DNA of 64,000 nucleotides from Kiritimatiellia bacterium. Lineage in GTDB: Bacteria > Verrucomicrobiota > Kiritimatiellia > RFP12 > UBA1067. Positions 984 through 7,800 of the stretch are shown here, piece after piece. The number at the start of each line of letters is the position of its first letter. Position 1 is the stretch's first letter. A model generated the notes under the pieces. It had not been told where the DNA came from. It worked only from the letters and a program-made list of their open reading frames with translations, and made no database searches. Position numbers and translations under genes: made by a program. The DNA is taken from positions 5,656 to 69,655 of the forward strand of contig JAFRSR010000121.1 in assembly GCA_017427485.1 (NCBI GenBank), written 5' to 3'.

Positions 984-1171
984 GCGGTGCGTGATGCCGT
1001 ATGGGGAGCCGCCGTCTCGGCGGCGGTCGGTGCGTGATGCCGTATGGGGAGCCGCCATCTTGGCGGCGTCTGCTGCGGATACAGCCGCCGGGACGGCGGC
1101 TCCCCATGCTGCGGCGTGCCCTGTGTCCTGCACGATTCGCAGATGCGCCCCAAACGAAACGAAAAACCGCC
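984..1171. repeat. REP-like palindrome cluster; 1032-1171 is copy 1 of a 140-bp direct repeat
   Basis: Tandem units cggtgcgtgatgccgtatggggagccgcc...ggcggc followed by the inverse unit gccgccgggacggcggctccccat. 1032-1171 matches 13258-13397 with 8 mismatches by manual alignment. Confidence 0.9.
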
Positions 1172-1470: not shown

Positions 1471-1500
1471 TGGTAGGGCGGCGTGTCCCCACGCCACCGC
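1471..1500 (+). repeat. GTAG-type REP
   Basis: tGGTAGggcggcgtgtccccacgccacc, with hairpin ggcgtg/cacgcc. Confidence 0.75.
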
Positions 1501-1578: not shown

Positions 1579-2595
1579 ATGGGCATGAAGCGAACGATGA
1601 TGATTGCCGGGCTGGCGGCAATTCTGGGAGGGCCGGCCGCCGTGCCGGCCCAGGCGGCGGTGAGCGTGACGGACGTCACCGCCAAACAGCGCTACCCCTG
1701 GAACGGCCTCGTCGATATCACGTGCAACGTGGCGGGCATCGACGGCGAGACGAACGGCTTGAAATTCGCGGTCGCGGCGGTGATGCCGGATACGGGCAAC
1801 GCACGCAGCGCACGGAATTTTTGGGTGGTGCAGGGCGGCACCAACTCTACAGATCGCGAGGTTCATGCGAACGGCAGCTACCGCCTTCTGTGGGACGCCC
1901 GCGCAGACCTCGGCATCGTGCGCTACACGAACATGGTCGTGCGCGTCAATTTCGATACCCATGAAAAAGTGCAGCTCTGGGAAGGCGGCCCGTATTGGGC
2001 CACCACCAACATCGGCGCCGAAAATCCGGAAGACTACGGCTATTACTTCTGGTGGGGCGACACGGTGGGCTACAGGCGCGAAGGCAACGCCTGGGTGGCG
2101 ACCGACGGCTCGTCTTCCAATTTCTCTTTCGGTTCCGGCAACACCCCGACTTACAATAAAACTCCAGCCACCTTGCAAAGCGAGGGCTGGGTCGTGTCGG
2201 AGAACGGCACGTACGTGCTTGCACCGGAGCATGATGCGGCGCAGGTACAGTGGGGCGGCGGCTGGCGTATGCCGACGTATCAGGAACTGAACGATCTCTG
2301 CTACAACAAGTGCGACTGGACGTGGACGACGCAGAACGGCGTGAATGGCTACGTCGTTCGCGGACGGGGCGACTACGCCTCCGCGAGCATCTTTCTCCCC
2401 TGCGCCGGCTACGGCGACGGGACTTCGCTCAGCAATTCCGGTTCGTACGGCCGCTGCTGGTCGTCCGTCCCGCTCTCGGACAGCAACGGCTCGTGGTACC
2501 TCTACTTCTATTCGGGCGACCACGGCACGTACAGCAACTACTACTACCGCAACTACGGTTTATCGGTTCGCCCTGTCCAAGGGTTCGCCCAATAG
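1579..2595 (+). CDS. Secreted DGR target-type protein with C-terminal C-type-lectin-fold (DUF1566/Fib_succ_major-like) domain
   Basis: Signal peptide and N-terminal QRYPWNG domain. Motifs KVQLWEGGPYWATTNIGA, WRMPT..EL, IFLPCAG, WSS and terminal GLSVRPV are characteristic of DGR variable proteins. Immediately upstream of a DGR RT. Confidence 0.85.
   Translation: MGMKRTMMIAGLAAILGGPAAVPAQAAVSVTDVTAKQRYPWNGLVDITCNVAGIDGETNGLKFAVAAVMPDTGNARSARNFWVVQGGTNSTDREVHANGSYRLLWDARADLGIVRYTNMVVRVNFDTHEKVQLWEGGPYWATTNIGAENPEDYGYYFWWGDTVGYRREGNAWVATDGSSSNFSFGSGNTPTYNKTPATLQSEGWVVSENGTYVLAPEHDAAQVQWGGGWRMPTYQELNDLCYNKCDWTWTTQNGVNGYVVRGRGDYASASIFLPCAGYGDGTSLSNSGSYGRCWSSVPLSDSNGSWYLYFYSGDHGTYSNYYYRNYGLSVRPVQGFAQ
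2401..2580 (+). other. Putative DGR variable region (VR)
   Basis: Non-conserved positions are mostly NNC/NAY codons (tac, gac, agc, cgc, tgc, cac, aac), as expected from adenine mutagenesis of AAC codons. It is followed by the hairpin gttcgc-ccaata-gcgaac (2583-2600). Confidence 0.7.
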
Positions 2596-2612
2596 CGAAC
2601 GAAGTGAGCGCA

Positions 2613-2638
2613 TTCAATTCTTCAATTCTTTAATTCTT
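2613..2638. repeat. 8-bp tandem repeat (ttcaattc)x3
   Basis: ttcaattc ttcaattc tttaattc tt, directly after the target stop codon and hairpin. Confidence 0.7.
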
Positions 2639-2660
2639 ATGGTGGAATGGTAGGCAGAAT

Positions 2661-2718
2661 TGGTAGGGCGCGTTGTCCCCAACGCGCCGCGGCGGCGTGA
2701 GGACACGCCACTCTACCA
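2661..2718. repeat. GTAG REP doublet (REPIN-like)
   Basis: tGGTAGggcgcgttg-tccc-caacgcgcc ... ggcgtgaggacacgccactCTACCa: two inverted REP units. Confidence 0.8.
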
Positions 2719-2730
2719 TGAAAGGCGAAT

Positions 2731-4827
2731 ATGGCATCGATTGAGAACAGCCTGAAATACGAATCCGAAGTGGAGCCGGGAAAGATCCGGCTCGTCACGT
2801 CGGGCGAGTTCGTGCGCGCCTACAACCGCAGCGCGTGGCTGTTCTACTGCTGCATCTCGAAATACAAGGTGATACGGAAATACTCCAAGCAGCAGCAGAA
2901 GGACGTGTACTTCCTCGGGTTTCCCGTGAGCAAGCTGCTGGAGCTTGCGAACGGGCGCGTGTGCACGAAGACGGACTTCGGGTACGACGTCATCCACGAC
3001 CCGAAGATGCGCGAGGTGTTCGCGGCGGAATTCCGCGACCGGGTGGTACACCACCTCTTCTACAACTACACGCATGAACTCTTCGAGCGCACGTTCATCG
3101 CGGACAGCTACAGTTGCATCGAGGGGCGCGGCACGCACTACGGGGTGGAGAGGTTGAAGCATCATCTCCTCTCCTGCTCGCAGAACTGGACGAAGCCGTG
3201 CTACGTGCTGAAGCTCGACGTGAAGGGCTACTTCATGAGCATCAACCGTGCGCGGCTGCTGGTGCGTTGCCGGGAGTTGCTGGGGAGGGTTAAATGTTCA
3301 CAAATGGCAAATGGCACAATTGTTCACAAATCACAAATGGCAAATAGCTGCGACGCGCGGAAGCCCTGCCGCATTTGCATTGATGGCATTGGTGGCAATT
3401 GTGAACAATTGAGATTTGTGAACAATGAAATCGCGTTGATGGATTGGCCTTTGGTGGACTACCTTCTCGAATCCATCTGCATGCTCGATCCAGTGGCGAA
3501 CTGTCGCATCATCGGCGACAGGGACGAATGGAAGCTGCTGCCGAAGGAGAAGTCGCTCTTCAACTCGAAGCCCGGATGCGGTCTGCCGATTGGCAACCTC
3601 TCGTCGCAACTGTTCAGCAACGTCTACCTCGGCGTGTTCGACGACTTCATGAAGCGCGAGCTCAAGTGCCGCCATTACGGACGGTACGTCGACGATGCGT
3701 ATGTGGTCGCGTCGTCGAAGGAGGAACTTTGGCGCATCGTGCCGAGGGCGAGGGAGTTCTTGCGCGACGAACTGGAACTTGAACTGAACGAGGCGAAGGT
3801 GCGCGTGATCGACGCGCGCAGGGGCGTGGAGTTCCTCGGCGCGTATGTGAAGCCGTACCGCACGTATCCGGCGAACAAGGCGCTTCGCAGGATGCGCGGG
3901 CGGCTGAAGTCGCTCGACTGGAGCGAAGGGCCGGACAAGGCGCAGACGCGCGTGAACAGCATGTTGGGCGTGCTTTCGCACTACGACTGCTGGCACGTGC
4001 GCAAGGTGATAACATGGGAAGCGCGGTTGCGCGAACACGGGCGCGTGACGGACGACTGCCTCAGGTTCGAGCCGGATCGGCTACCTGTCCCACACGGTGT
4101 CGTCGTGCGTCAGCAAGGCGGCGCAACGGACGAACGCGAGGATGCGACACTGCTCGCCCACGACCTCGTACACGATGCGATAGGGGCGGATGATCAGTTG
4201 ACGGAGGCGGTCCAGGTCGCGTGGCGGGGCGAGAAAGCATGCGAGCGGAATCCGGGAACCCATGGAGGGCATCGACTCAAGGAGGTTGACCTCCTCGGTG
4301 ATCTTGGCATGCCACCTGATGCCGTCCTCGTAGGAGAGCGCCGTGACGATGGCTCGGATTTGCTCCGTCAATTGTCCACCGGCATGGTTCGACCAGTCAA
4401 CGGTCATGCAAGTGTCCTTTCGTCAAGCTGCTTTTTGAGCCGGGCCATCAGGTCGTGGTGCGAAATGAACTCGCCGCGCTCGAACTGGTCGCGTGAGATT
4501 TCGACAGACCGTGAAAGTTCCTCGCGTTCGCGGCGGGCTTCGTTGTCGGCCCAGAGATCCTCGAAGTCGGATATGTCCAATAGGATGGAGGCCGCGTGTC
4601 CGTTCTGCGTGATGACGAGCGGACGGTGCGTCCGACGCGTCCGCTGCATGCAGTCCGCGAGGGTTTGGCGGCATTCGGTGTACGATACCACGTCCTTATC
4701 GAGGCGTGGGCGTTGCAAGGTCATTTCTTTGACGGGCATAGAATCTCCTGTGGGTGAAACGCCCATATTGTACAGCAAACCGTACAGGCATGTCAAGGGG
4801 GATGGAAAAAGCAATTTGAAAGGCTGA
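2731..4827 (+). CDS. DGR-type reverse transcriptase fused to an N-terminal MutS-N-like accessory domain; the RT-like part ends near 4080
   Basis: Motifs PKMREVFAAEFRDRVVHH, SYSCIEGRGT, LKLDVKGYFMSI, GLPIGNLSSQ (DGR [LI]GxxxSQ signature), YGRYVDD, EFLG, NSMLGVLSH. The first 87 aa (GEFVRAYNRSAWL...FLGFP) resemble MutS domain I-like DGR accessory proteins. The last ~250 codons are antisense to the TA operon. Confidence 0.9.
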   Translation: MASIENSLKYESEVEPGKIRLVTSGEFVRAYNRSAWLFYCCISKYKVIRKYSKQQQKDVYFLGFPVSKLLELANGRVCTKTDFGYDVIHDPKMREVFAAEFRDRVVHHLFYNYTHELFERTFIADSYSCIEGRGTHYGVERLKHHLLSCSQNWTKPCYVLKLDVKGYFMSINRARLLVRCRELLGRVKCSQMANGTIVHKSQMANSCDARKPCRICIDGIGGNCEQLRFVNNEIALMDWPLVDYLLESICMLDPVANCRIIGDRDEWKLLPKEKSLFNSKPGCGLPIGNLSSQLFSNVYLGVFDDFMKRELKCRHYGRYVDDAYVVASSKEELWRIVPRAREFLRDELELELNEAKVRVIDARRGVEFLGAYVKPYRTYPANKALRRMRGRLKSLDWSEGPDKAQTRVNSMLGVLSHYDCWHVRKVITWEARLREHGRVTDDCLRFEPDRLPVPHGVVVRQQGGATDEREDATLLAHDLVHDAIGADDQLTEAVQVAWRGEKACERNPGTHGGHRLKEVDLLGDLGMPPDAVLVGERRDDGSDLLRQLSTGMVRPVNGHASVLSSSCFLSRAIRSWCEMNSPRSNWSREISTDRESSSRSRRASLSAQRSSKSDMSNRMEAACPFCVMTSGRCVRRVRCMQSARVWRHSVYDTTSLSRRGRCKVISLTGIESPVGETPILYSKPYRHVKGDGKSNLKG
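3292..3430. repeat. AT-rich palindromic in-frame insert within the RT gene
   Basis: 3319-3336 and 3409-3426 are inverted repeats (17/18 match). Internal direct repeats tcacaaatggcaaat. Confidence 0.75.
4081..4407 (-). CDS. RelE/ParE family type II toxin
   Basis: 108 aa with MTVDWS...P.MG...LRQLIIRPYRIVYEV...ILAF pattern. Overlaps the antitoxin stop codon. Confidence 0.8.
   Translation of the reverse strand: MTVDWSNHAGGQLTEQIRAIVTALSYEDGIRWHAKITEEVNLLESMPSMGSRIPLACFLAPPRDLDRLRQLIIRPYRIVYEVVGEQCRILAFVRCAALLTHDDTVWDR
4404..4739 (-). CDS. Phd/YefM family antitoxin
   Basis: SYTECRQTLA...RPLVITQNGHAASILLDISDFE motif. AGGAGA RBS upstream of ATG at 4739. Confidence 0.85.
   Translation of the reverse strand: MPVKEMTLQRPRLDKDVVSYTECRQTLADCMQRTRRTHRPLVITQNGHAASILLDISDFEDLWADNEARREREELSRSVEISRDQFERGEFISHHDLMARLKKQLDERTLA
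4767..4796 (-). promoter_or_regulatory. TA promoter with overlapping TGTAC-N8-GTACA operator
   Basis: Minus strand TTGACA-18nt-TACAAT. The tgtac...gtaca palindrome resembles YefM/Phd autorepression operators. Confidence 0.7.
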
Positions 4828-4839
4828 AAGGAACGAAAA

Positions 4840-7800
4840 ATGAAAAGAATGTCGATGTTTCTGTTTGCGGCGGTCGCGGCAAACGCGATCCTCCCGGCAC
4901 GGGGTGGCGATTCCGCGCCGTTCCTGCTGGACACGGCGGACGGCACGCGCATAGCGACGGAGGGCGAGGCGATTCCGATTGCCTATTCGCCCCGCTGGGG
5001 CAACGCCGCAAGCTGTACGGTGACTGAAAGCGGGAGGGCCGCGCTTGTCGCGGCCGCGACCTCCGAAGGCACCACCACGTGGACGCCGCAGGGCACGGGC
5101 GGCCACACCCTCACGCACACGGCTGGCTCCACCACCTACACCGCGCAATTCGCGGTGCTGGGCGATGACGTGGAGACTCATGGCGGGACGATCCTTTCCA
5201 ATGAGACATGGGGGACGAATAAGGTTCATCTCGTCGTCGCGCCGATAACCCTTGGCGATAATGACTTTTCCCACTTCTATCGGCTTGAGATACAGTCTGG
5301 CGCCATTGTGAAGTTCATGCCTGGGACAGGCTTGTCGATCGAGTCCAACGCCTATTGTTCGGCTTCAGGGGCAATCTTCACGCATGTGAATGACGATACC
5401 ATAGGCGGCGACACGCTGATGGACGGCGATTCAACAAGCCCCGTGATAGACGACTACGCAGTGTCCAACATGCTGTCTTGGGATGATACGATTGAATTTC
5501 GTTACCGCACTGATCCGAATGTGACTCTGTCGGGAACAATTTCATCGGGCGAAACCTGGCGCGGACACAATATCTATTGTGTCACCGGTAACCTCACGGT
5601 TGCCTCTGGTGCGACGCTCACGATAATGCCCGGTGCTATTGTCAAATTCGCAGAAGGGAAATCGCTCACGGTCAACAGCGGCGCAATGCTCACGCTTCAA
5701 TCCGGCACGATCCTGAAGTTTGGCACGGGGTGCTCGCTCACGGTGAACGGTTTCTTGGACGCGCAGGGTACCCGCGCCGCGCCGATCGTTTTCACCTCAC
5801 TGAAGGACGACGCCCACGGCGGCGACACGAACGGGGATGGGGAGAAGACCTACGCCCAGGCAGGGGATTGGTATCAAATCAGCGTTCCCGGCACGGCCAA
5901 CTTCAACTACTGCCATGTACTGTACAACTCATCGACCGAGAACACGGGTGCGATCGATGCGCGCGGCGGCACGGTCAATTTCGACAACAGCGAAATTGCT
6001 CATACTAAGTACGAGTGCGTGAATGCCCACAACAGCGGTTATTTCACCGCCCGCAATTCGATATTCCGCGATTCTTCTCTTGGTTTCGGCTACTACGGGA
6101 GCGGTCGCGTCAAGGCGTACAACTGCGTGTTTGCCGACTTGACGGCGGGCATCAGACAAAGCGGCAAGACTCTGGTGAACTGCGTGTTCTATCGCTGCCT
6201 CGCCTTTACCGACCAAAGCGGTGATGGTAGCACGTTCAAGAACTGCGTGTTCTACAATCCATCTGGTTATGGTGCGCAGTCGTATTCCAAGTGCGGTTCC
6301 AACGGTAACATCTGGGACGATCCTCTCTTCGTCGACCCCGACAACGGCGATTTCCGCATTGCGGCGAACTCGCCGTGTGTGGACGCGGGCGACGGCACGG
6401 TCGCACCGGCGACCGATTACTGGGGTCAGCCACGCATGGACGTGAAGGCGGTCGCCGACACCGGTACGCCCAACTCCGACGGCGTGTGCCCCGACATTGG
6501 CATCTACGAGGTGCCCGGCACGGCGCCTGTGCCGCTGCCGGATCTGGCGGTGGTTTCGGTCGCGACAAGCGCGACCCTCCCGCTTGCGCCCGGAGACTCT
6601 TTGGCCGTTACCTACACCGTGACGAACCGCGGCGCGGCGGCGGTCTCCGGCCTCGTGCGCGACCTCTTCCGCTTCACGGGCGCGGACGCGGCGACGGCGG
6701 GCCTTACGGTCGATGCTGCCGAGATCGAGCAGGCGTACAGCGTGCCGACTGGCGGATGCGCCACGCTCACGGCCACCGTCACCGTGCCAATGCTCAAGGC
6801 TGGCAAGTGGAAAGTGGGCGTGATGGTGAATTCCGGGCGCGTTCCATACGAGGCGGTGATCGCGAACAATTTCGCTGAGGCGGACGAGATGATTACGGTT
6901 GCGGTCGAACCTTTTGCGGTCGGGGAGTCGAAAGACGTGGAAATCCCAGTTGGCGGCGTGGTTGGCGCGGCGGTGGTTGGACTACCCGCCACCGGCGGCG
7001 CGATCGTGGCGGCGCTGCCGAAGGGCGTCGTGTTCTACGCATCTGCGGGCTATGTGCCCGACGAAACGCGGCACGATGCGGCGGGTGTTCTGCTGGCCGA
7101 CGGACGCACGGCACTCTTCATTCCGGCGCACGAAGAGGGCGAGACGGTGTACGTCACGCTCGTGAACGATTCGAGGGCGGCACAGACGGTGGCGCTTGCG
7201 GCGCTGGCTTCAGGCGACGGCCTTGAAGTCGCGAAGCCCGCCGACGTGGCGGTGACGGCGAAAGGGCCGAAGGTGACGGCGAAGCTCGTGCTGCCGGAGA
7301 GCGTCCGAGACGGGCGCGTGTACGCCGCCTGGGTGGAATACTCGAACAGCGGCGACGAGGACGCCGAACTGCCGATCTTCACGGTCTCGCGCACCGGCGG
7401 CGGGGCGACGCTTTCGGCGACCGCGAAGGGAACGTATTCGGCGAATCCGCTTTCGCTCGTTGGGCTTGCGCCGTCCGCGCCGCGCGGGAAGCTGAAGCCG
7501 GGCGAGGCGGGGCGCGTGGCGTTCTACTTCATGTCGTCCGGCAATCTGTCGCTGAAGCTCGGCATGGTGACGGAAAAATCGACGTCCGTGCTGAACGGTT
7601 TCGCGACGGTCGCCGAATACCGCGCGGGGATGAGCGCGGCGGCGACGCGGCTCTGCGCGCGCGGCGGGGCGGAGCCGGGATTCACGGAGGTGCTTGCCCA
7701 GGCGCTCAACGAGAAGCGCGGCGCGGGCGGCGCGGCGGTGTGCGGAACTTTGAGGCATTCCGCCACGAAGATGCCGATGACGGGAGTGGAGGTGCATCTC

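What the first reader, a model, noticed from the sequence alone, without database searches (positions are those of the whole stretch)
1579..4080. DGR with accessory domain fused in frame to the RT and no template repeat in the window
Seen: a CLec-type target with a VR-like 3' end, then one ORF in which an 87-aa MutS-N-like domain (GEFVRAYNRSAWL..FLGFP) runs straight into IHDPKMREVFAAEFRDRVVHH at 2989-2994. The RT has the DGR GLPIGNLSSQ and YVDD motifs. I found no AAC-rich second copy of the VR on either strand. Known: DGRs need TR, RT and an accessory protein (Avd or MutS-like), TR often lies between accessory gene and RT, and DGR RTs normally have roughly 60 aa upstream of the PKxR motif, absent here. 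Inference, three options: (a) an in-frame deletion removed the accessory C-terminus, the TR and the RT N-terminus, freezing one target variant; (b) a fused accessory-RT architecture that uses a TR in trans; (c) an assembly collapse.
Basis: partly seen in the sequence, partly recalled or inferred. Interest (0 to 1): 0.8.

Follow-up and report, generated by a model that had tools for sequence, protein, structure and literature searches.

The report
Deletion-scarred, switched-off diversity-generating retroelement
This is the leftover of a bacterial protein-diversifying retroelement that lost its template, one helper gene and the start of its reverse transcriptase in a single 1.2-kb deletion, so the surface protein it once varied is now fixed; such decay is ordinary, though unusually frequent in this lineage.

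Summary
A DUF1566/Lcl_C-type target gene (1579-2595) ends in a variable repeat (VR). The next ORF (from 2731) joins an 86-aa MutS-domain-I-like segment directly to a DGR reverse transcriptase (RT) at motif 1 (junction about 2987-2991). No template repeat (TR) exists in the window or in the 6.3-Mb assembly.

Intact relatives (L004, L005, L039, L040) show the ancestral order: target/VR, Msl (about 165 aa), Avd (about 175 aa), TR inside the 5' end of the RT ORF, RT. Against them the window lacks 1219-1372 nt: the Msl C-half, all of avd, the TR, the post-TR segment and about 65 aa of RT N-terminus. The break sits at a 3-4-nt microhomology.

Per-run contigs from two samples bridge the junction without differences, so it is not an assembly collapse. 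The VR differs from relatives' TRs mainly at TR adenines (24/51 versus 11/135).

Options (b) and (c) are not.

About 19 other in-frame Msl-RT junction classes and several complete cassette losses occur in related metagenome sequences. In-frame fusions look over-represented. Ordinary in kind, of modest interest.

The parts
1579..2595 (+). DGR target gene (338 aa, signal-peptide-like N-terminus, DUF1566/Lcl_C-type C-terminal domain), intact
   Evidence: ORF. Lcl_C E 1.8e-4; 10/10 homologues match Lcl_C. 59-77% identical to the targets of related loci.
2394..2585 (+). Variable repeat (VR), now without a template. The 3' end (CAAGGGTT.. to the stop at 2595) is the VR-type end shared with the relatives' VRs and differs from their TR ends.
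   Evidence: Against the L004 TR, 24/51 TR-adenine positions are changed versus 11/135 other positions, p 1.3e-8. Against the L005 TR the non-adenine count is 9/134 or 13/135 depending on end-gap scoring. Identical in contigs of two runs.
2661..2718 (.). REP-like imperfect palindrome in the target-Msl spacer; a related copy lies at 1471-1500
   Evidence: Repeats D19, I3, I6. Six partial copies elsewhere in the genome. Contig depth 109-455 against about 15 in the flanks in runs X3 and X6.
2731..2988 (+). Remnant of the msl accessory gene: codons 1-86, the complete MutS-domain-I-like domain
   Evidence: 83-84% nt identity to L004:3520-3777 and L005:3512-3765. Intact 164-165-aa proteins are 98-99% identical over these 86 aa (P0121, P0122). 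Fold match.
2987..2991 (+). Deletion junction. The break falls after 2987 and its position is ambiguous over a 3-4-nt microhomology (CAT/CATC in the relatives).
   Evidence: net loss of 1219 nt versus L004, 1231 versus L005, 1372 versus L039. Bridged by contig X1 record 5 (2852-3113, 0 differences) and X3 record 14 (2916-3105, 0 differences).
2989..4083 (+). Remnant of the DGR reverse transcriptase, from motif 1 (IHDPK) to the thumb. GLPIGNLSSQ at 3580-3609, YVDD at 3685-3696. The N-terminal ~65 aa and the TR-encoded leader are missing.
   Evidence: RVT_1 E 6.7e-13. 71-76% aa identity to the RTs of TR/VR-bearing loci L004, L005, L025. Alignment.
3285..3445 (.). Low-GC palindromic insert (about 50 codons, in frame) inside the RT ORF. 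Absent from P0002; replaced by other inserts in P0003 and P0004.
   Evidence: DNA hairpin -33.7 kcal/mol, z -3.76. 17 partial copies in the genome. Contig depth 60-118 against 16. Alignment.
4084..4827 (+). Read-through tail of the RT ORF, with no stop until 4825-4827, antisense to the toxin-antitoxin pair. Also present in P0002 and in the intact relative P0004.
4081..4407 (-). ParE-family toxin gene inserted at the RT 3' end. Its TAG stop is the complement of an RT-frame Leu codon.
   Evidence: ParE_toxin E 1.1e-7; sequence.
4404..4739 (-). Phd/YefM-family antitoxin gene. The start is taken at the internal Met; the open frame reaches 4952.
   Evidence: PhdYeFM_antitox E 4.1e-10 at residues 87-145 of the 182-aa frame.

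Best explanation
The locus is the remnant of a diversity-generating retroelement (DGR) of the Msl+Avd type.

Its ancestor had this order: target gene with VR, msl, avd, TR (read as the N-rich leader of the RT ORF), RT. RT with Avd, and probably Msl, copied TR RNA into adenine-mutagenised cDNA that overwrote the VR of the target at 1579-2595. It probably also overwrote the VRs of four paralogous targets elsewhere in the genome.

One deletion of about 1.2 kb at a 3-4-nt microhomology then removed five things:
- the C-terminal half of msl;
- all of avd;
- the TR;
- the RNA segment just downstream of the TR;
- the N-terminal extension of the RT.

Because msl and the RT lie in different frames, a 3n+1 deletion happened to join them in frame. 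The result is an open Msl(1-86)-RT(motif 1 to thumb) ORF.

Shown: the deletion, its extent, the absence of a TR and of avd from the assembly, the adenine-biased history of the VR, and support for the junction in independent per-run contigs.

Inferred: the element can no longer diversify anything, the VR is frozen, and the fused ORF is an inert scar. The inference rests on the Bordetella system, where bRT has no activity without Avd, Avd binds the RT N-terminal extension, and the RNA downstream of the TR supplies the primer.
For: 1. Architecture of relatives. In 19 of 25 related loci an Msl match lies upstream of the RT core. The gap is 1.17-1.29 kb in 18 of them and 2.7 kb in one. It is 0 nt in the window.

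2. L004 and L005 encode a 166-aa Msl (the longest open frame in L004, from an upstream TTG, is 175 aa), a 172-177-aa Avd-like protein (bAvd E 4e-8) and an RT ORF whose first ~95 aa are the TR read in frame.

3. Extent of the loss. Window 2727-2984 aligns to L004:3520-3777 and window 2990-3200 to L004:5002-5212. The net loss is 1219, 1231 and 1372 nt versus L004, L005 and L039, with microhomology CAT(C).

4. tblastn and blastn with the relatives' full Msl, Avd, full RT and TR DNA find no Msl C-half, no Avd and no TR in the 6.3-Mb assembly.

5. History of the VR. The relatives' own TR/VR pairs differ at adenines: L004 29/53 versus 2/136, L005 25/51 versus 5/135. The window VR shows the same bias against their TRs, 24/51 versus 11/135.

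6. Read support. Logan contigs of two samples bridge the junction with 0 differences, at depth 16.1 in X1 (equal to its flanks) and 7.3 in X3 (flanks about 10-13). The VR stretch is identical in both.

7. Recent origin. Intact 164-165-aa Msl proteins are 98-99% identical to the window's 86 aa (P0121, P0122). An intact relative, P0004, shares the same downstream antisense TA tail.

8. Many other junctions. Related proteins fuse Msl to the RT at about 19 different in-frame points, from motif 1 to the last 20 aa. At least seven of the 14 long fusions begin beyond YVDD. This is what random decay predicts, not a designed fusion.

9. Literature. bRT needs Avd, its N-terminal extension contacts Avd, and the spacer downstream of the TR primes cDNA synthesis (passages of bioRxiv 10.1101/2023.10.23.563531). 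Over half of candidate DGRs in GenBank were discarded as inactivated (passage of PMC5758913).
Against: - The fused ORF is fully open over 450 codons. It keeps all catalytic motifs, and its lineage-specific substitutions relative to P0002, P0004 and P0005 are conservative. There is therefore no positive sign of decay beyond the deletion itself.
- The left break falls at the end of the MutS-like domain (model residues 2-84), so a folded fusion protein is conceivable.
- The same junction occurs in P0002, whose RT core is closer to the intact P0004 (6 differences in 313) than to the window (13 in 313). The window's Msl part is closest to the intact P0121. This needs either recombination or a second identical deletion.
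- In-frame fusions look over-represented among related deletion forms.
- The assembly is 90% complete, so a TR on unassembled DNA cannot be excluded.
- Only contigs, not raw reads, could be laid. Minority intact alleles or rare VR variants would be invisible.
Confidence: 0.88

Rival explanations
1. The Msl-RT fusion arose by deletion but is now kept by selection. Either it is a protein with a new, TR-independent role, or only its reading frame is kept so that ribosomes reach the RT stop and the downstream giant surface-protein gene stays expressed (translational coupling, or avoidance of polarity).
For: - About 19 in-frame junction classes against about 10 out-of-frame or unclassifiable ones, where neutrality predicts 1:2.
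- All 3 Msl-RT deletions reached through DNA-level searches are in frame: the window, L038 and L041.
- The same junction appears in P0001 and P0002, each nearest to a different intact allele.
- The break lies at a domain boundary.
- In L005 the RT stop overlaps the start region of the downstream large gene.
Against: - The fusions keep anything from a near-complete RT to its last 20 residues, so no common protein function is plausible.
- Short out-of-frame tails could not be classified reliably: tblastn E values were 0.1-3.
- Gene calling and 90% clustering may favour long in-frame products.
- In the window lineage the TA insertion separates the RT end from the downstream gene, and the ORF reads through 250 antisense codons.
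Confidence: 0.1
2. A functional fused accessory-RT architecture that diversifies the VR from a TR located elsewhere (in trans).
For: - RT motifs 1-7 and the thumb are intact.
- A second DGR exists in the genome on contig C431.
- Four paralogous targets show that this DGR type can act on remote VRs.
Against: - No TR-like copy of this VR was found in 6.3 Mb.
- The C431 TR/VR pair (4226-4370 and 6030-6174) has no similarity to the window VR.
- No avd related to the relatives' Avd was found anywhere in the assembly (tblastn with the L005 Avd).
- The RT lacks the N-terminal extension, which in bRT binds Avd.
- None of the best 150 Msl representatives carries a full RT.
- The VR is identical in two samples.
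Confidence: 0.03
3. Assembly artefact: a collapse or chimeric join that skipped avd and the TR.
For: - The window comes from a fragmented metagenome-assembled genome (446 contigs, 7% contamination).
- A divergent relative whose msl appears to run on past 2992 co-occurs in run X3 (record 13, depth 3.5, 36 differences).
Against: - Per-run contigs of two samples span the junction exactly: X1 record 5 (depth 16.1, equal to its flanks) and X3 record 14 (depth 7.3, flanks about 10-13).
- The identical 698-aa product is on record from 6 contigs, and a 96%-identical one with the same junction (P0002) comes from another assembly.
- The only repeat at the break is 3-4 nt, far below any assembly k-mer.
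Confidence: 0.02

Closest known systems
DGRs of 'Architecture D' (MSL + avd accessory genes) with category-d / CLec2 (DUF1566) targets, exemplified by the Legionella DGR (Wu et al. 2018, PMC5758913; passages read)
   Same: The intact relatives L004, L005, L039 and L040 have msl and avd, a DUF1566/Lcl_C-type target with a C-terminal VR, and an adenine-specific TR/VR pair. The window keeps the target, the VR, the Msl N-domain and the RT core of that design.
   Different: The window lacks avd, the TR, the Msl C-half and the RT N-terminal extension, so it is a remnant and not a member in working order. In this clade the TR lies inside the RT ORF, in frame, as an N-rich leader. I did not check whether that also holds for the Legionella element.
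Bacteroides DGRs Bfr, Bth and Bun, which encode Avd plus Msl (bioRxiv 10.1101/2024.11.15.621889; passages read)
   Same: The same pair of accessory genes. The Bacteroidales loci L006-L022 are the window RT's next-nearest relatives (37-53% aa identity; 47-53% for L006-L018) and have the same order and spacing.
   Different: According to the passage read, those elements diversify pilus-tip and related adhesins and are active. The window's element sits in a Kiritimatiellae genome, targets a small DUF1566 protein upstream of a 2763-aa surface protein, and is deleted.
Bordetella phage BPP-1 DGR (bRT, Avd, TR, spacer RNA)
   Same: The reference for mechanism: adenine mutagenesis, dependence of the RT on Avd, Avd bound by the RT N-terminal extension, and priming from RNA just downstream of the TR.
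   Different: As I recall (not checked in any call), it has no Msl, and its TR and spacer lie between avd and brt rather than inside the RT ORF. All of its parts that correspond to the window's deleted segment are essential there.
Inactivated or truncated DGRs noted in surveys (Wu et al. 2018: more than half of candidates discarded; passage)
   Same: A DGR RT and VR without a usable TR or accessory set.
   Different: Here the inactivating event is resolved to the nucleotide, and the same cassette is seen to have decayed many times independently in one lineage.

Membership tests
Diversity-generating retroelement (complete, working cassette) | Reverse transcriptase of the DGR clade | tested here: met
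   The RT core is 71-76% identical to the RTs of L004, L005 and L025. L004 and L005 carry adenine-specific TR/VR pairs. The motif GLPIGNLSSQ is present; I recall the I/LGxxxSQ signature from the literature and did not find it in the text searched. No phylogeny was built.
Diversity-generating retroelement (complete, working cassette) | Template repeat paired with the VR, differing at adenines | tested here: not met
   No TR in the window or in the 6.3-Mb assembly, which is 90% complete.
Diversity-generating retroelement (complete, working cassette) | Accessory gene avd (in avd-dependent lineages) | tested here: not met
   tblastn with the L005 Avd finds nothing in the genome. The relatives have it between msl and the TR.
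Diversity-generating retroelement (complete, working cassette) | Target gene with a C-terminal VR in a C-type-lectin-type domain, showing adenine-directed variation | tested here: met
   Lcl_C/DUF1566 match in 10/10 homologues. The VR is adenine-biased against the relatives' TRs, p about 1e-8. The lectin fold itself was not confirmed: the AlphaFold model was poor, pLDDT 47.5.
Msl (MutS-like DGR accessory protein) | Small stand-alone protein (112-283 aa per Wu et al.) encoded in a DGR that also has avd | tested here: not met
   Only codons 1-86 remain, fused to the RT. The relatives' Msl is 162-177 aa. Most of the best 150 representatives are 148-197 aa; about a tenth are shorter fragments and the longest is 289 aa.
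Msl (MutS-like DGR accessory protein) | Fold of the MutS mismatch-recognition domain (domain I) | tested here: met
   The model of L005 Msl aligns residues 2-84 to E. coli MutS 12-94, Z 6.9, rmsd 2.9 A over 80 residues. The top 39 rows are MutS/MSH and the next is Z 2.9. Foldseek E is 0.026. Sequence searches give no Pfam or PDB match. The window's 86 aa are 91% identical to that part.
Group II intron RT / retron / defence RTs (Drt2, 3a, 4) | Score above the curated NCBIfam cut-off | tested here: not met
   Best match is group_II_RT_mat, 82.6 bits against a cut-off of 300. Drt3a scores 42 against 200, retron St85 40 against 235.

The most novel reading that the evidence does not exclude
Loss of avd, the TR and the RT 5' part is not random decay. 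On this reading it is a recurrent, favoured way of switching this DGR off once a useful target variant exists, and selection keeps the msl-RT reading frame open, either to sustain expression of the downstream giant adhesin gene or because some fusions retain a function. The same junction in two lineages (the window and P0002), each nearest to a different intact allele, would then be a repeated event at a preferred site.
Probability: 0.12. Interest if true: 0.55.

Novelty: new member of a known kind. Interest (0 to 1): 0.3.

Why it matters
The locus itself is ordinary: a dead DGR, a class that surveys already report as common. It is useful in three ways.

1. It is a clean, nucleotide-resolved example of how a DGR dies while its diversified target survives. 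Annotation pipelines should call such an ORF an RT remnant, not a new fused architecture.

2. It exposes a lineage of animal-gut Kiritimatiellae in which the same Msl+Avd cassette has been deleted many times. Three of the 4 species-representative genomes with an msl match are deleted, 4 of 9 metagenome loci are deleted, and there are about 19 in-frame fusion classes. That makes the question of how long DGRs are kept, and what removes them, directly countable.

3. The apparent excess of in-frame fusions is a small, testable oddity.

Tried and rejected
**Structure and family searches that gave nothing**
- The AlphaFold model of the target protein, built from a 10-sequence alignment, was poor (pLDDT 47.5). 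It was not used for fold searches, so the C-type-lectin fold of the target is unconfirmed.
- Profile searches of PDB sequences with the Msl and target alignments gave nothing significant (best E 0.083 and 0.4).
- Pfam gives no family for Msl. NCBIfam gives none for the target.

**Wider searches for the fused form**
- A degenerate DNA pattern spanning the window's junction found 0 matches in the JGI metagenome contigs.
- A class-wide sample of 401 genomes had an Msl match only in the window's own genome.

**Read support**
- The look-up of sequencing runs listed no RNA holder.
- All four runs laid are Logan contigs, not raw reads. Read-level VR variants and minority intact alleles could not be examined.
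- Runs X5 and X6 carry only divergent relatives and have no cover over parts of 2752-3063.

**Other**
- Short out-of-frame tails of related proteins could not be assigned to a frame with confidence.
- One script stopped at L025 because its VR and TR lack the anchor words used. L025 was left out of the TR/VR counts.
- The search of earlier findings was not open.
- I considered RT-mediated (template-switch) deletion as a cause of the recurrent losses. I found no way to test it, and the 3-9-nt microhomologies fit ordinary slippage.
- No dN/dS was computed for the fused ORF. No DNA of the closest deletion-bearing relative (P0002) was available, and divergence from L004 and L005 mostly predates the deletion.
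- Supplementary tables of Wu et al. 2018, which list Architecture D members, were not seen.

Full report
**What is in the window**

The + strand carries a 338-aa ORF (1579-2595). After a 135-nt spacer holding a REP-like palindrome, an ORF starts at 2731 and has no stop codon until 4827.

Pfam finds a weak Lcl_C (DUF1566) match in the first ORF and RVT_1 in the second. Two minus-strand ORFs at 4081-4407 and 4404-4739 are a ParE/Phd toxin-antitoxin pair, and the RT frame reads through them in antisense.

The second ORF begins with 86 residues that match no Pfam family. It then continues without interruption into IHDPKMREVFAAEFRDRVVHH, with GLPIGNLSSQ (3580-3609) and YVDD (3685-3696) further on. 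Two points differ: the ORF does not end at 4080, and (see below) an avd gene is also missing.

**No template repeat**

Three searches looked for a TR.
- An ungapped scan of the whole 6.3-Mb assembly with the 121-nt VR core, counting any mismatch as a match where the subject base is A, returned only the VR itself at >= 80%.
- blastn with word size 7 found four paralogous target genes (contigs C212, C8, C409, C254) and nothing TR-like.
- Searches with the TR DNA, Avd and full-length Msl and RT of intact relatives again found only the five VR regions and the window's own fragments.

The genome does hold a second DGR on contig C431. It has an RT with GLPIGNLTSQ and YMDD, and a 145-nt repeat pair at 4226-4370 and 6030-6174, with further copies on C340 and C43. 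That repeat has no similarity to the window's VR.

**What the intact form looks like**

A protein search with residues 1-450 returned thousands of RT relatives. Of the 120 listed, only the window's own product, P0002 and P0003 cover the N-terminal 86 aa. Most of the others cover about 80% of the query, and many carry instead an N-rich leader followed by about 55-65 aa before IHDPK.

A scan of species-representative genomes gave 25 loci. In 19 of them an Msl match lies upstream of the RT core. The gap is 1.17-1.29 kb in 18 loci and 2.7 kb in one.

The two closest loci with DNA, L004 and L005 (Kiritimatiellae MAGs), read as follows:
- target with VR;
- a 166-aa Msl in both (the longest open frame in L004, from an upstream TTG, is 175 aa);
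- a 172-177-aa Avd-like protein (bAvd E 4e-8, below Pfam's cut-off);
- an RT ORF whose first ~95 residues are the TR read in frame (...AGNGNGTSLNNAGSNGNYWSS...NNNRNNGQ.VRP.Q...).

Their own TR/VR pairs differ almost only at TR adenines: L004 29/53 adenines versus 2/136 other positions, L005 25/51 versus 5/135. These are therefore bona fide DGRs.

This is the Msl+avd 'Architecture D' with DUF1566/CLec2 targets of Wu et al. 2018 (passages). Bacteroides DGRs with Avd+Msl are described in bioRxiv 2024.11.15.621889 (passage).

**The deletion**

Window 2727-2984 aligns to L004:3520-3777 and window 2990-3200 to L004:5002-5212. The equivalent holds for L005.

The net loss is 1219 nt relative to L004, 1231 relative to L005 and 1372 relative to L039. 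The break falls after window 2987. The two parental sites share CAT or CATC.

In the relatives msl and the RT lie in different frames, so a 3n+1 loss joins them in frame.

Five things are lost:
- Msl residues from 87 onward;
- the whole avd gene;
- the TR;
- the segment just downstream of the TR;
- the RT N-terminal ~65 aa.

In the Bordetella system bRT is inactive without Avd. Its N-terminal extension is the Avd-binding surface. The RNA downstream of the TR supplies the primer and wraps the enzyme (passages of bioRxiv 2023.10.23.563531). By analogy, every non-catalytic requirement for cDNA synthesis is gone here. This last step is inference.

**The VR was once diversified**

Against the TRs of L004 and L005 the window's VR is changed at 24 of 51 TR adenines. 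Only 11/135 (L004) and 9/134 or 13/135 (L005, depending on end-gap scoring) other positions are changed, p about 1e-8. The adenine changes give Y, D, S, G, R, C and L codons where the TRs have AAC.

The numbers of AAC codons differ slightly from those TRs, so the lost TR was not identical to either.

The four paralogues show the same bias in decreasing strength: C212 p 5e-9, C8 about 1e-5, C409 about 3e-5, C254 0.03-0.001. They end in the same VR-type 3' sequence. The ancestral element probably served several targets, and all are now orphaned in this assembly.

**Not an assembly artefact**

All runs holding the stretch are kept as per-run Logan contigs.
- In X1 a 262-nt contig (depth 16.1, flanks 16-17) covers 2852-3113 with no differences.
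- In X3 a 190-nt contig (depth 7.3, flanks about 10-13) covers 2916-3105 with no differences.
- The VR stretch is identical in both: X1 2401-2687 at depth 17.2, X3 2401-2601 at depth 6.6.
- A low-depth, 86%-identical contig in X3 (record 13) matches 2730-2992. Its further 115 letters do not lie on the window. This fits a co-occurring relative with an intact msl.

Contigs cannot show rare variants, so VR homogeneity is not proven. The identical 698-aa product is on record from six contigs.

**The Msl part**

An AlphaFold model of L005 Msl, built from a 15-sequence alignment, has pLDDT 79.5. Its residues 2-84 align to MutS domain I (E. coli MutS 12-94) with Z 6.9 and rmsd 2.9 A over 80 residues. 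The top 39 rows are all MutS/MSH proteins and the next unrelated row scores 2.9. Foldseek alone gives E 0.026.

The deletion left exactly this domain.

A profile search of 1.84 billion representatives finds 1446 Msl relatives at E <= 0.001. Most of the best 150 are 148-197 aa, about a tenth are shorter fragments, and the longest is 289 aa; that one (P0144) is itself a deletion fusion. No established family joins Msl to a full RT.

**Many other deletions in the same lineage**

Searching with the 86-aa domain among longer and similar-length proteins gave 73 and 30 hits. Mapping all 103 onto L005, and reading the 39 sequences I fetched, gave the following.
- About 46 are full-length, or nearly full-length, stand-alone Msl. 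They include P0121 and P0122, 98-99% identical to the window.
- About 19 different in-frame Msl-RT junction classes. The 14 long fusions fall into 12 classes; the window/P0002 pair and the P0035/P0045 pair each share a junction. Shorter proteins add the rest. Msl ends range from residue about 34 to about 155. RT starts range from motif 1 to the last 20 residues, and at least seven of the 14 long fusions begin beyond YVDD.
- Fusions to REP arrays, to a REP-associated-transposase-like gene, or to the downstream surface protein.
- About 10 classes that are out of frame or unclassifiable.

With DNA in hand:
- L038 joined at a 9-nt repeat (CCGGTGGAG) and L041 at about 7 nt.
- In the genus, 4 of 33 species-representative genomes have an Msl match. 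One is intact (G021). Three are deleted at different points: the window; G019, where Msl residue ~117 joins a REP array plus a transposase-like gene; and G432, where Msl residue 34 joins the downstream giant gene.
- Of 9 metagenome loci, 4 are deleted (L038, L041, L042, L044). Two carry the full cassette up to the contig end (L039, L040, where the RT is cut at about residues 394 and 351), 2 are partial but consistent with intact, and 1 is odd.

Decay of this cassette is therefore common. That agrees with the remark of Wu et al. that over half of candidate DGRs look inactivated.

**Open points**

1. P0002 has the same junction as the window (GYDI|IHDPK against GYDV|IHDPK). Yet its RT core differs from the intact P0004 at 6 of 313 positions and from the window at 13 of 313. 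The window's Msl part is one residue from the intact P0121 and four from P0002. Either recombination around an old deletion allele or two hits at one site would explain this. The numbers are too small to decide.

2. In-frame junction classes outnumber out-of-frame or unclassified ones by about 19 to 10, where neutrality predicts 1:2. All three DNA-ascertained Msl-RT deletions are in frame. Gene calling and clustering may bias this. Selection against polarity on the downstream gene is a mundane possibility, since that gene overlaps the RT stop region in L005.

3. The RT ORF in the window, in P0002 and in the intact P0004 has lost its own last ~14 codons and stop to the ParE/Phd insertion. That event therefore predates the deletion.

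**Verdict**

This is a deletion-derived remnant of a known DGR type. The fused ORF is a scar, not a new architecture. The VR is most likely frozen. Novelty: a new member of a known kind. Interest is modest. What raises it is the lineage-wide pattern of repeated cassette loss.

Noticed in passing
proteins P0003, P0033, P0035, P0045, P0059, P0125, P0131, P0144, P0156, P0157, P0165, P0167, P0168, P0176, P0180, P0181, P0192, P0193, P0197-P0200, P0202; loci L038, L041: About 19 different in-frame Msl-RT deletion junctions occur in related Kiritimatiellae metagenome sequences, against about 10 out-of-frame or unclassifiable ones. Neutrality predicts 1:2. Microhomologies of 3-9 nt were found wherever DNA was available.
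   Followed up: partly
window 2986-2994 versus proteins P0002, P0004, P0121: P0002 has the same junction position as the window. Its RT core is nearer to the intact P0004, while the window's Msl part is nearest to the intact P0121. This means either recombination or a recurrent deletion at one site.
   Followed up: partly
L043:537-1000: A 1213-nt metagenome contig reads avd, RT start, the 5' half of a TR (unmutated AAC codons), the 3' half of a VR (diversified, with the VR-type end), then msl. That is the joint expected from TR x VR recombination (a circle or a tandem duplication). It could also be an assembly chimera through the shared ~19-nt stretch.
   Followed up: partly
window 3285-3445: A low-GC palindromic element of about 50 codons sits in frame inside the RT ORF (my placement between motifs 2 and 3 is by eye, not tested). 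It forms a hairpin (-33.7 kcal/mol, z -3.76) and is repeated in the genome and metagenome. At the same site, homologues have no insert (P0002), only a short one of about 5-9 residues (P0005, P0017), a half-size version (L004, L005), or a GC-rich REP-like insert (P0003, P0004). The site is a hot spot for insertions that the intact DGRs apparently tolerate.
   Followed up: partly
window 1471-1500 and 2661-2718; L034:4185-4900; L042; L044: REP-like palindromes (TGGTAGGGCG..GTCCCC type) flank the target gene. Arrays of them, plus a REP-associated-transposase-like gene (..PDHIHFF..), lie exactly at the junctions of complete cassette losses in G019 and L044.
   Followed up: no
window 4081-4827: The RT ORF has no stop of its own and reads about 250 codons antisense through a convergent ParE/Phd pair. 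The ParE TAG stop is the complement of an RT-frame Leu codon. P0002 and the intact P0004 share this, so the TA insertion came before the deletion.
   Followed up: partly
G000 contig C431:4225-6174 (also C340:10540-10689, C43:2820-3132): A second, apparently complete DGR lies in the same genome. Its RT has a full N-terminus, and a 145-nt repeat pair (89% identical) has further similar copies on two other contigs. It is unrelated to the window's VR.
   Followed up: partly
L004:4536-4805, L005:4539-4805 and proteins P0004-P0087: In this RT family the TR lies inside the RT ORF, in frame, downstream of a conserved start (MTVND.. or MVNKK..). The RT is therefore predicted to carry an N-rich leader that mimics the target's C-terminus. 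This is conserved from Kiritimatiellae to Bacteroidales.
   Followed up: no
G000 contigs C212:507-1415, C8:12920-13543, C409:37964-38659, C254:28044-28652: Four paralogues of the target gene have adenine-biased VR-like ends and the same VR-type 3' sequence. None has msl, avd or an RT beside it. They are probably former remote targets of the lost TR.
   Followed up: partly
L022:2455-3183: In one Bacteroidales locus the frame that begins with the Msl domain is open for 242 aa. By eye its second half looks Avd-like, which would be a natural Msl-Avd fusion. Not tested.
   Followed up: no
window 985-1112: Two 43-nt tandem copies (91% identical) are followed by an inverted copy, upstream of the target gene in the spacer after the 5' neighbour.
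   Followed up: no
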